Shown here: positions 48,627-50,726 of the stretch, one piece after another
How the letters are laid out: every line of letters starts with the position of its first letter
Numbering within the stretch: position 1 is the stretch's first letter
DNA from: Escherichia coli O157 typing phage 14
Sequence record: KP869112
DNA length: 64,000 bases
Direction: 5' to 3' (one strand)
Made by a program: the position numbers and the translations under genes
Notes under the pieces: model-generated
Databases searched by the model: none
What the model was told of the DNA's origin: nothing
What the model saw: the letters and a program-made list of their open reading frames with translations, nothing else

Positions 48627-49025
48627 TTATTCTTCCTGAAAAGCAACGATATCATATGAACTTGCAGACGATCCTGGTGAAGAATGACTCCAGTCTAGGT
48701 CATCAGAGTAGTCAGCGTACTGTGCACCACTACGTAGTTTATATTTTACCCACTTACCTGGTGCAGGGTTTTCACCACCTTCCCATACTTCCCAGCCTTC
48801 TGGCAGGCCGTCCTGGGGATAGTCATCCACCTCACTAATAATCTTAGGGTTTGGCACCAAGATCCCTGCAGGCTCTTCCTTACGGATAAGTGTCCACACA
48901 ACGTAGGTGTCTGAGCAGGCGCATGATAGCAAAGTATATCCACTATTCAGAACTTCTGCAAGCTCTTTTTCAGCATCTTCCAATTTGGTTAAGTGGTATT
49001 GGATAACCTTCACACCTGTAATCAT
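48627..49025 (-). CDS. hypothetical protein
   Basis: RBS GGGAGG. Confidence 0.5.
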   Translation of the reverse strand: MITGVKVIQYHLTKLEDAEKELAEVLNSGYTLLSCACSDTYVVWTLIRKEEPAGILVPNPKIISEVDDYPQDGLPEGWEVWEGGENPAPGKWVKYKLRSGAQYADYSDDLDWSHSSPGSSASSYDIVAFQEE

Positions 49026-49330: not shown

Positions 49331-49343
49331 TTGATTGTACTCT

Positions 49344-50668
49344 TTATTGATCAGAATTATCTTTCGTAATTAAGGTCTGGGTAAGTTTGTAATAGCGGAA
49401 GCCACCGCCACCTTGCCAGCTTGCAGACTTAGAAATACCACCTTGATCTTCACCATCAATCACTTTTTGCAAGCGAGGGATAATATGGGTATGACAATGA
49501 TCACCCAGTTCGATCAAGATCCAACGTCTTTTCATCTTGTGGGCTACAGCAGCAGTAGTTCCCGAACCGCCGAATGAATCCAATACCAAATCACCTTCTC
49601 GCGTACACATTTCGAGAATCCGCTTCAAAAGCGCTTCTGGTTTTTTCCATTTTTGAAACTAACGCCGCCTTCATTTGCTATTCCATTCCAACTAATGTCT
49701 GTCCAAACATCAGTTATTAGTTCCGCAGGTCGCATCTCACCGTCAATTTCCAAAAGCCTGTTGGAGTAAAAGACCATTTGCCTACCATTTGCGATATAAA
49801 ATCCTTCAACATCCTCATTCGGATGTACATAAACCTTATCCCTATCTTTCTTTGACTTCTCGATAGTTTCTTTTCTCTTTATTTTAGCGCCACCACCAAT
49901 TGCAACAGATTGAAATACACGTTCTGCATTATCAATTGCGAATTGTGCTAATTCATCATCGAATGTGTCAGGCAGTTTTTTCTTAGCTTCTTTTGCATCT
50001 TTATAGCCATTGGCCTTTGCAAACGCATCGGCAATACCGCACCACGTCCAATTTTTATAATGGTCATCCGGGTTTAATAGGTATTTGTTATATCCTGTAT
50101 CATACCCTTTAGGTATATAGATTTTGTTAAGCGGTTTCTGGGTGCGATCTTTTGCATATACAAGCAAAAAGTTTGCTGTGGAGAAAACTGTGGCTCCTGT
50201 TGCCTTAAATCCCGAAGGGAAATTTGTGGTCATCGATATGGTATTTAACTGATTTGCACGACCAAAAATCTCGTCCATCAAAACTTTTAAATACGCCATT
50301 TCGCAATCATCTAAGTGAACGAATATTACCCCATCATCACTTAGAAGATTACGAATTATTTCTAACCTATCCCTCATTAAGCCCAGCCAAACGGAATGCT
50401 CCAGGCTATCATCGTAGTGCTCAAAAGCCCTCCCGGTATTGAATGGTGGGTCTATGTAAACACACTTCACTTTGCCTGCATACTCTTGCTCTAGCGCCTT
50501 CAATGCTAATAAGTTATCTCCAAAAATCAGTTTATTATCAAAAATATCGTTTTCGGTCACTTTCTGGCTGTGGTAAGACTTGCTAGAATCTTCTAACAAA
50601 ATGTGCTGCTCTAACTTTTTGCGCTCGTTTTTACCTATCCAGGTAAGTTCTAATTTGGTTTTACTCAT
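49344..50668 (-). pseudogene. beta-class DNA N6-adenine/N4-cytosine methyltransferase split by a frameshift
   Basis: Upstream ORF (49625-50668) carries DPPF (VYIDPPFNTG); downstream ORF (49344-49628) carries AdoMet motif FGGSGTT; reading frames overlap across 49628-49658 around a homopolymer (GGAAAAAACC on coding strand). Confidence 0.55.
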
Positions 50669-50726
50669 CGTTTGGTGCTCTCCTTAGTTTTTGTGGGGAG
50701 GAGTGCCTCCCCTTTATACTCACATC

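What the first reader, a model, noticed from the sequence alone, without database searches (positions are those of the whole stretch)
49344..50668. DNA methyltransferase split by a frameshift at a homopolymer
The catalytic DPPF motif and the AdoMet-binding FGGSGTT motif of a beta-class methyltransferase are in adjacent ORFs whose frames overlap over about 30 nt that include a run of six A on the coding strand (T6 at 49641-49646 on the plus strand). This is a pseudogene, a sequencing error at the homopolymer, or a slippage-prone (phase-variable or programmed) site.
Basis: seen in the sequence. Interest (0 to 1): 0.5.

Follow-up and report, generated by a model that had tools for sequence, protein, structure and literature searches.

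The report
Frameshifted anti-restriction methyltransferase gene in phage
An rV5-like E. coli phage (O157 typing phage 14) has lost one A from a run of seven in a DNA methyltransferase gene that its lineage copied from a host restriction system; this is an ordinary, probably genuine knock-out mutation at a slippage hotspot, not programmed recoding.

Summary
On the minus strand a 347-aa ORF (49625-50668, catalytic DPPF) and a 94-aa ORF (49344-49628, FGGSGTT) are two halves of one beta-class N6_N4 methyltransferase. They are separated by a -1 frameshift in an A6 run (T6 at 49641-49646). The window is E. coli O157 typing phage 14 (KP869112). Its closest relatives, rV5 and typing phage 5, have A7 there and one intact 441-aa gene, and so did every deposited Vequintavirus sampled. 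An assembly error is unlikely, for four reasons: Illumina MiSeq data; an independent Logan re-assembly gives the same allele; typing phage 5 from the same run reads A7; and this is the only one of 68 long ORFs in the window split between frames. Programmed frameshifting is not supported, because the split is not conserved and there is no downstream RNA structure. The gene is a 3'-truncated copy (~94% nucleotide identity) of the Mod gene of an E. coli chromosomal Type III restriction-modification system, so it is probably a self-protection methylase. It is under purifying selection (dN/dS 0.02-0.26), yet public assemblies carry at least 10 independent knock-out lesions, at least 4 of them at this tract (A5/A6/A8, G loss). 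Best reading: Streisinger slippage at a hotspot in a dispensable accessory gene. Interest is modest.

The parts
49625..50668 (-). N-terminal fragment ORF (347 aa) with catalytic motif IV DPPF (50441-50452) and the middle (TRD-like) region. It ends 5 out-of-frame codons after the deletion, at TGA 49625-49627. Identical to AKE47181.1 'putative methyltransferase', E. coli O157 typing phage 14.
49344..49658 (-). C-terminal reading frame with motif X remnant (KPEALLKRIL) and AdoMet-binding motif I FGGSGTT (49554-49574). Listed as a 94-aa ORF from TTG 49626-49628. That TTG overlaps the upstream TGA stop, and only a weak AGAAG Shine-Dalgarno-like element precedes it.
49641..49646 (-). A6 homopolymer on the coding strand (T6 on plus). 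This is the site of the 1-nt deletion relative to the A7 of rV5, typing phage 5 and the host mod gene. With the following C it forms an in-frame A_AAA_AAC heptamer (49640-49646).
49335..50681 (-). Extent of ~94% nucleotide homology to the E. coli chromosomal Type III mod gene (L019 9001-10363). It starts 13 nt upstream of the ATG. It ends 9 nt past the phage stop codon, which was created by an 11-nt deletion relative to the host gene.
49973..49984 (-). Second A6 run (AAGAAAAAACTG), intact here. It is shortened to A5 in other assemblies (L017, L018).
49773..49792 (-). Direct 11-nt repeat GCAAATGGTAG/GCAAATGGT, intact here. It is the site of an 11-nt tandem duplication (L024) and an adjacent 1-nt deletion (L013-L016) in other assemblies.
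50534..50548 (-). T5 run in the coding strand (GATATTTTTGATAAT), intact here. It is T6 (frameshift at codon 42) in BASEL phage EmilHeitz.

Best explanation
A genuine, recent one-base deletion (A7 to A6) made by replication slippage (Streisinger mechanism) has become the dominant allele in the typing phage 14 stock. It inactivates an accessory orphan DNA methyltransferase. The gene is a 3'-truncated copy of the Mod subunit gene of an E. coli Type III restriction-modification system. When intact, it presumably methylates phage DNA at that system's recognition site and so protects the phage on the minority of hosts that carry the cognate Res endonuclease. The deletion falls in the codons for motif X (GKKPEALL). 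Translation therefore ends 5 codons later, and the product lacks motifs X and I-III (AdoMet binding), so it should be catalytically dead. Because few E. coli carry the cognate system, the gene is dispensable on most hosts, and knock-outs arise repeatedly, most often at this tract. Shown here: the lesion, its uniqueness among sampled isolates, the intact orthologs, the host origin, purifying selection, and recurrent independent lesions. Inferred: that the allele is real in the reads, that the intact enzyme is active and protective, and that loss is neutral or nearly so on O157 propagating hosts.
For: Lesion and repair. Identity of the window: the 347-aa product equals AKE47181.1 of typing phage 14, and the neighbouring helicase equals AKE47183.1. 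Intact orthologs: rV5 and typing phage 5 annotate a 1326-nt CDS with A7; all 60 listed records span 102 nt against the 101-nt query, none identical; all 60 sampled tblastn rows are a single piece. Against artefact: MiSeq 150-bp paired-end reads and Velvet, with typing phages 4 and 5 on the same run and intact; the Logan re-assembly of SRR1391173 gives a gene with 0 differences, including the private substitutions; only 1 of 68 rV5 ORFs of at least 100 aa is split over two frames in the window. Hotspot: the tract is one of only three A/T runs of 7 or more in the 65-kb rV5 composite. A6 occurs in L007-L009, A8 in L011, L012 and L025, a G loss in L010 (1 nt from L017, which is intact at this site), and GGG-A5 as a second hit in L015. 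Other lesions in the same gene: tract B A5 (L017, L018), a 1-nt deletion at nt 879 (L013-L016), an 11-nt duplication (L024), a 297-nt in-frame deletion of DPPF (L023), and T5 to T6 in isolate EmilHeitz. Function and origin: PADLOC MTase_III PDLC03636, 7.6e-200, profile positions 2-443 of 575. The host homolog matches full length (7e-285) and sits next to REase_III (9e-191). It is found in 29 of 5426 complete E. coli genomes at ~94% nucleotide identity. The middle (TRD-like) region is 98% identical in protein. Purifying selection: dN/dS 0.02-0.26 among phage orthologs.
Against: No reads were examined, so a minority or majority A7 subpopulation, or a consensus error, cannot be ruled out. The A6 alleles of TP14 and L007-L009 share an identical 3' half with rV5 and could be one event spread by recombination, which lowers the count of independent events. 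Some metagenome-derived A-run variants could be sequencing errors (SRR053014 and the JGI contig may be old 454 data; this is my inference from the accession date). Activity of the C-terminally truncated 441-aa Mod, and its protective role, have never been tested. BASEL data show Vequintavirinae are very sensitive to the restriction systems tested (PMC8594841), so any protection is at best specific to the cognate system. The helicase control for gene-specific enrichment is only suggestive, because that protein cluster is heterogeneous.
Confidence: 0.75

Rival explanations
1. Sequencing or assembly error: the phage really has A7, and the deposited consensus dropped one base in the homopolymer.
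For: Homopolymers are the classic site of indel errors. No reads could be inspected. Every other deposited isolate sampled is in frame at this tract.
Against: Illumina MiSeq has low indel error at 6-7-nt runs (general knowledge; platform). Typing phage 5 from the same run reads A7 in a near-identical context (same Velvet pipeline per the paper's methods). Logan's independent assembly reproduces A6 on a 17-kb contig with no break at the site. No other ORF of at least 100 aa in the 64-kb window is frameshifted relative to rV5. The same gene carries lesions elsewhere that cannot be homopolymer errors: a 297-nt deletion and an 11-nt duplication.
Confidence: 0.1
2. Phase-variable contingency locus: the A-tract has evolved as, or effectively acts as, a reversible ON/OFF switch for the phage methylase. 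This would be analogous to bacterial Type III mod phasevarions, letting phage populations hedge between hosts with the cognate Type III system and hosts with methylation-dependent restriction.
For: The gene is a Type III mod homolog. Tract lengths A5, A6, A7 and A8 all occur in nature, in closely related haplotypes (L007 A6 against L011 A8, 2 substitutions apart). The tract is among the longest homopolymers in this part of the genome. At least 4 independent events occur at this one site.
Against: A7 is below the length at which homopolymers usually show high-frequency switching (general knowledge). The tract is not conserved: most orthologs read GGG or GGT + A6, and only 7 of 85 records match the GGA-A7 context. 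The KK codons are explained by a conserved GKKPE motif that is also present in distant bacterial homologs. Many knock-outs are irreversible or lie elsewhere in the gene. L015 carries two frameshifts, which points to decay and not switching. All sampled isolates are ON.
Confidence: 0.1
3. Recoding or rescue: full-length enzyme is still made from the A6 allele by -1 ribosomal frameshifting on the in-frame A_AAA_AAC heptamer, or by transcriptional slippage. Alternatively, the two fragments are both translated (reinitiation at the TTG overlapping the TGA stop) and assemble into an active split enzyme.
For: The deletion leaves A_AAA_AAC in the correct frame (49640-49646; from the sequence). This heptamer gives more than 0.10% -1 frameshifting in E. 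coli without a stimulator and is very likely used by IS elements (PMC4066793). Low-level compensation of a homopolymer indel is documented for herpes simplex virus thymidine kinase (PMC5009743). The TTG start overlaps the stop codon (T-TTG-A).
Against: The heptamer is classed as low efficiency in E. coli. The downstream RNA is no more structured than shuffled sequence (z = +0.96). The arrangement is absent from all sampled orthologs, so it is not programmed. No strong Shine-Dalgarno element precedes the TTG. Motif X is cut by the break, so the fragments would have to reconstitute one Rossmann-type fold.
Confidence: 0.05

Closest known systems
Streisinger slippage frameshift hotspots at A-runs in phage genes (T4 rII and lysozyme; textbook knowledge, not re-checked here)
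   Same: A single-base gain or loss in a short A/T homopolymer during phage DNA replication knocks out a gene that is dispensable on the propagating host. The same site is hit repeatedly.
   Different: Here the recurrence is seen across natural and laboratory genomes in public databases, not in a genetic screen. The target is an anti-restriction methylase.
Phase-variable Type III mod genes (phasevarions) of Haemophilus, Neisseria and Helicobacter (from my own knowledge)
   Same: A Type III Mod-family gene is switched off by a frameshift in a simple repeat. Several tract lengths co-exist in nature.
   Different: Those use long, conserved repeat tracts that switch at high frequency, and the gene sits in bacteria with or without res. 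Here the tract is 7 nt, falls in the motif X codons, is not conserved among orthologs, and the gene is an orphan in a lytic phage.
Phage-encoded orphan DNA methyltransferases used for self-protection (e.g. T4 Dam, P1 Dmt, Bacillus phage multispecific MTases; from my own knowledge)
   Same: A phage methylase with no partner endonuclease, presumed to pre-empt host restriction.
   Different: This one is a very recent capture (~94% nucleotide identity) of a specific E. coli Type III mod gene. It lacks the C-terminal ~130 residues and is inactivated in this particular phage.
Herpes simplex virus thymidine kinase G7 'savior' indel with compensatory frameshifting (PMC5009743)
   Same: A viral homopolymer indel knocks out a non-essential enzyme, while a slippery run could allow trace full-length product.
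   Different: No selective agent is known here, and no evidence was obtained that residual frameshifting matters.
Programmed -1 frameshift sites of dnaX and IS elements (A_AAA_AAG and A_AAA_AAC; PMC4066793)
   Same: An in-frame X_XXY_YYZ heptamer at the junction of two overlapping frames.
   Different: There is no stimulator, no conservation, and orthologs encode the protein in a single frame.

Membership tests
Beta-class N6-adenine/N4-cytosine DNA methyltransferase (Pfam PF01555 N6_N4_Mtase) | Single domain matching PF01555 above the gathering score | tested here: met
   Repaired protein: 146 bits against a cut-off of 26.7, residues 67-393. The fragments match profile positions 1-176 and 171-217.
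Beta-class N6-adenine/N4-cytosine DNA methyltransferase (Pfam PF01555 N6_N4_Mtase) | Circular permutation with catalytic motif IV (DPPF/Y) N-terminal to AdoMet motif I (FxGxG) | tested here: met
   DPPF at window 50441-50452 (aa 73-76) lies upstream of FGGSGTT at 49554-49574.
Type III restriction-modification Mod subunit | Sequence membership in a Type III Mod profile, with similarity to solved Mod subunits | tested here: met
   PADLOC MTase_III PDLC03636, E 7.6e-200. The host homolog hits Mod chains 6k0w_B (2.5e-26) and EcoP15I Mod 4zcf_A (8e-23).
Type III restriction-modification Mod subunit | Full-length architecture including the C-terminal region | tested here: not met
   The phage protein covers profile positions 2-443 of 575. 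The host protein is 567 aa. The phage gene ends through an 11-nt deletion.
Type III restriction-modification Mod subunit | Adjacent res gene (helicase-nuclease subunit) | tested here: not met
   The phage neighbours are a PIF1-type helicase and small proteins of unknown function. In E. coli the homolog does sit next to REase_III (9e-191). The phage gene is therefore an orphan derivative, not a complete system.
Programmed -1 ribosomal frameshift site | In-frame slippery heptamer X_XXY_YYZ | tested here: met
   A_AAA_AAC at 49640-49646, in the zero frame GGA AAA AAC.
Programmed -1 ribosomal frameshift site | Downstream stimulatory RNA structure | tested here: not met
   MFE -19.5 kcal/mol against a shuffle mean of -22.2, z = +0.96.
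Programmed -1 ribosomal frameshift site | Two-frame arrangement conserved in orthologs | tested here: not met
   All sampled orthologs are single-frame 441-aa genes.
Phase-variable contingency locus | Tract-length polymorphism among related genomes | tested here: met
   A5, A6, A7 and A8 were observed.
Phase-variable contingency locus | Long repeat tract conserved across orthologs | tested here: not met
   The maximum in-frame tract is A7. Most orthologs have GGG or GGT + A6.
Phase-variable contingency locus | High-frequency reversible switching within a clonal population | not testable with these tools
   This needs read-level or plaque-lineage data.
Pseudogene (recent loss of function) | Reading frame disrupted relative to intact orthologs that are under purifying selection | tested here: met
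   A 1-nt deletion relative to rV5 and typing phage 5. dN/dS among orthologs is 0.02-0.26.
Pseudogene (recent loss of function) | Further degenerative changes | tested here: inconclusive
   There are only 2 private substitutions, both nonsynonymous (S150F, Q313R), and 0 synonymous. The numbers are too small to judge.

The most novel reading that the evidence does not exclude
The Mod-derived methylase of rV5-like phages is a de facto switchable anti-defence gene. Slippage at the A-tract (and a few other short repeats) repeatedly turns it off, and potentially back on, because methylation protects against hosts carrying the cognate Type III system but is costly or even targeted (for example by methylation-dependent Type IV restriction) on others. 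Under this reading the recurrent knock-outs are positively selected, not neutral, and could explain host-range differences among typing phages 4, 5 and 14.
Probability: 0.1. Interest if true: 0.6.

Novelty: new member of a known kind. Interest (0 to 1): 0.3.

Why it matters
For annotation, the two CDS fragments of typing phage 14 should be labelled as one frameshifted methyltransferase gene, not as a 347-aa 'putative methyltransferase'. For biology, the interest lies in the context and not in the frameshift itself. Vequintaviruses carry a very recent, truncated copy of an E. coli Type III mod gene, which is a clear example of a phage borrowing a host defence component as a likely counter-defence. 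This accessory gene is knocked out again and again in nature and in culture. Typing phages 4, 5 and 14 are used to discriminate O157 strains. A methylase-plus versus methylase-minus difference is therefore a concrete, testable candidate for part of their different lysis patterns, which the original genome paper did not consider.

Tried and rejected
1. Scans of IMG/VR (three patterns) and of GTDB genomes for the tract with its flanks found nothing, so those collections gave no allele counts. The one metagenome scan found a single intact GGG-A6 allele.
2. I first guessed that the 316-aa variants came from deletion of one copy of the 11-nt repeat. The DNA showed a 1-nt deletion instead (GCAAATGG to GCAATGG). 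The 11-nt repeat is involved only in L024, as a duplication.
3. A raw blastn indel list of the window against rV5 (126 indels) was too noisy to use as a quality control, because divergence is ~3% and many indels are intergenic or compensating. It was replaced by the ORF-integrity test.
4. The helicase control was meant to quantify gene-specific enrichment of truncations. The 90% cluster turned out to be heterogeneous (it contains 113-aa ORF236-like proteins), so I treat it as suggestive only.
5. A programmed frameshift was considered and rejected (no conservation, no structure).
6. A functional split enzyme was considered and judged unlikely (motif X is cut, and there is no good ribosome-binding site).
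7. Structure prediction was not run, because sequence evidence already fixed the family and the position of the break.

Full report
**1. What is in the sequence**

On the minus strand, ORF 49625-50668 (347 aa) carries the catalytic motif ...VYIDPPFNTG... and ends ...GGVSFKNGKNQKRF*. ORF 49344-49628 (94 aa from a TTG) carries ...DLVLDSFGGSGTT.... The second frame is open for 11 codons upstream of that TTG, so the two frames overlap by about 33 nt. The plus strand has T6 at 49641-49646, which is GGAAAAAACC on the coding strand at 49639-49648. Adding one A gives a single 441-aa ORF reading ...FKNGKKPEALLKRILEMCTREGDLVLDSFGGSGTT.... Pfam N6_N4_Mtase covers residues 67-393 of that protein as one domain (E 1.9e-42). 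The two fragments match profile positions 1-176 and 171-217 of 221.

**2. Which genome this is, and what relatives show**

- The 347-aa product is exactly AKE47181.1, 'putative methyltransferase', of E. coli O157 typing phage 14. The adjacent helicase equals AKE47183.1 of the same phage. TP14 is KP869112, an rV5-like Vequintavirus.
- In this gene the window differs from rV5 (DQ832317) and typing phage 5 (KP869103) by two substitutions plus one missing base. Both relatives read GGAAAAAAACC (A7) and annotate one 1326-nt CDS.
- Other relatives read GGG or GGT followed by AAAAAA and are also in frame.
- With a 101-nt query across the site, all 60 listed phage records span 102 nt and none is identical.
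- With the repaired protein as a tblastn query, 86 records match at 90% identity or more, and all 60 sampled rows are a single uninterrupted piece.
- One cultured isolate besides TP14 is broken. BASEL phage EmilHeitz has T5 to T6 at codon 42 and an annotated 344-aa CDS.

**3. Artefact or real?**

- TP14 was sequenced on an Illumina MiSeq (150-bp paired-end reads) and assembled with Velvet. Typing phages 4 and 5 were on the same run. Both have intact genes, and typing phage 5 reads A7 in a near-identical context.
- Logan's independent assembly of run SRR1391173 contains a gene with zero differences from the window, including the A6 and the two private substitutions. It lies in the interior of a 17-kb contig. 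That this run is the TP14 read set is my inference.
- As a quality control, I took every ORF of at least 100 aa in the corresponding 65 kb of rV5 and searched it against the window. Of 68 with hits, only the methyltransferase is split across two frames.

A consensus error is therefore unlikely. Only the reads can exclude it.

**4. Not programmed recoding**

The deletion does leave an in-frame A_AAA_AAC heptamer (49640-49646). Sharma et al. 2014 class this heptamer as low efficiency in E. coli. It gave more than 0.10% frameshifting without a stimulator, against a background of about 0.07%, and IS elements very likely use it (PMC4066793). However, the 101 nt from the site onward fold no better than shuffled sequence (z = +0.96). 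The two-frame layout is also absent from every sampled ortholog. Trace rescue by ribosomal or transcriptional slippage is possible, in the manner of the herpes simplex virus thymidine kinase G-run indels (PMC5009743). It would be incidental.

**5. What the gene is**

- The repaired protein matches the PADLOC Type III methyltransferase profile PDLC03636 (E 7.6e-200), but only over profile positions 2-443 of 575.
- 29 of 5426 complete E. coli genomes carry a chromosomal gene ~94% identical in DNA to the phage gene.
- In NZ_CP027591 that gene encodes a 568-aa protein matching the same profile end to end (7e-285). It sits immediately upstream of a Type III restriction subunit (REase_III, 9e-191). 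Both lie in a tRNA-Sec island that also holds a MAD1-like HTH protein, a DrmD-like SNF2 helicase and AbiD.
- Phage-host DNA homology runs from 13 nt upstream of the ATG to 9 nt past the phage stop codon (window 50681-49335). The phage stop codon arises from an 11-nt deletion relative to the host gene. The host gene also has A7 at the tract.
- More distant bacterial homologs are about 570-600 aa and keep the GKKPE motif. The full-length cellular form is therefore ancestral, and the phage gene is a captured, 3'-truncated copy with no res partner.
- The middle (target-recognition-like) region is 98% identical in protein between phage and host, so the same specificity is expected.
- Among phage orthologs dN/dS is 0.02-0.26, so the 441-aa form is maintained by selection.
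- The most economical function is self-methylation against the cognate Type III system. This is an inference; no activity data exist. Vequintavirinae are reported as exceptionally sensitive to the unrelated restriction systems tested in the BASEL study (PMC8594841).

**6. A recurrent target**

The 90% protein cluster around the 347-aa product, and neighbouring clusters, contain many truncated variants on long contigs. I checked them at the DNA level.

| Lesion | Where seen |
|---|---|
| A7 to A6 | L007-L009, three samples, 16-17 substitutions from TP14 |
| A7 to A8 | L011, L012, L025 |
| Loss of a G giving the same GGAAAAAACC | L010 (nearest relative L017, 1 substitution away, is intact at this site but broken elsewhere) |
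| GGG-A6 to GGG-A5, as a second hit | L015 |
| A6 to A5 at a second run | L017, L018 |
| 1-nt deletion at nt 879 | L013-L016 |
| 11-nt tandem duplication | L024 |
| 297-nt in-frame deletion removing DPPF | L023 |

- TP14 and L007-L009 share an identical 3' half with rV5, so their A6 may be a single event moved by recombination. Even so, at least four independent events hit this tract and at least ten hit the gene.
- The tract is one of only three A/T runs of 7 or more in 65 kb of rV5. Such runs are noted as under-represented in E. coli genes, possibly because they are indel-prone (PMC4066793).
- The same search on the adjacent 456-aa helicase found no truncated cluster on a long contig. That cluster is heterogeneous, so the comparison is only suggestive.

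**7. Interpretation**

The lesion is best read as Streisinger-type slippage at a hotspot in an accessory gene that is useful only on the roughly 0.5% of E. coli that carry the cognate system, and is therefore often lost. It is not an evolved phase-variation switch. The tract is short, most orthologs interrupt it, several knock-outs are irreversible, and one genome carries two frameshifts. TP14 has two private substitutions, both nonsynonymous (S150F, Q313R), and none synonymous. This is compatible with relaxed constraint, but the numbers are too small to weigh.

**8. Verdict**

The finding is an ordinary kind of event, and it sits inside a moderately interesting context: a phage copy of a host Type III mod gene that is repeatedly inactivated.

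Noticed in passing
window 49335-50681 (minus strand) vs L019 9001-10363: The phage methyltransferase gene is ~94% identical in DNA to the mod gene of a chromosomal E. coli Type III restriction-modification system present in 29 of 5426 complete genomes. The phage copy ends early because of an 11-nt deletion that creates a TAA stop, and it lacks the last ~130 residues.
   Followed up: yes
L019 4129-13478 (NZ_CP027591, tRNA-Sec island): A defence island combining a MAD1-like HTH protein, a DrmD-like SNF2 helicase (below the NCBIfam cut-off), AbiD, a hypothetical protein and Type III Mod/Res, next to frameshifted integrase remnants. It was not established whether these act together as one system.
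   Followed up: partly
phage records MG065635-MG065690 (e.g. H11-H13, H21-H24): Sixteen to twenty-one records named 'Campylobacter phage' with host C. jejuni are 97-98% identical to E. coli rV5-like phages at this locus, and several also across the 24 kb around it. They are probably mislabelled or contaminant Vequintaviruses.
   Followed up: no
L022 (MZ501062, phage EmilHeitz) nt 124 of the gene; equivalent to window ~50540-50544: A BASEL collection isolate carries an independent frameshift (T5 to T6) at codon 42 of the same gene. It is annotated as a 344-aa methyltransferase starting at an internal codon.
   Followed up: yes
window 50668-49344, codons 150 and 313: TP14's only substitutions relative to rV5 in this gene are both nonsynonymous (S150F, Q313R). 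No other sequence examined has these residues.
   Followed up: partly
L007 and L008, 3269-3538: In two metagenome contigs the homolog of window ORF 48627-49025 (132 aa) is called as only 89 aa. This may be another disrupted small gene downstream of the methylase.
   Followed up: no
rV5 and typing phage 5 (L001 ~4000; L002 ~2070): The intact A7 allele places an A_AAA_AAA heptamer in frame. Occasional -1 slippage on the wild-type mRNA would give a ~359-aa truncated product. This is not conserved in GGG/GGT orthologs, so it is probably incidental.
   Followed up: no
protein cluster P0137: The 90% cluster of the neighbouring helicase contains 113-aa proteins that match the downstream ORF 236 in length, and some contigs- or 475-aa helicases. 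This suggests occasional helicase-ORF236 read-through fusions or a clustering artefact.
   Followed up: no
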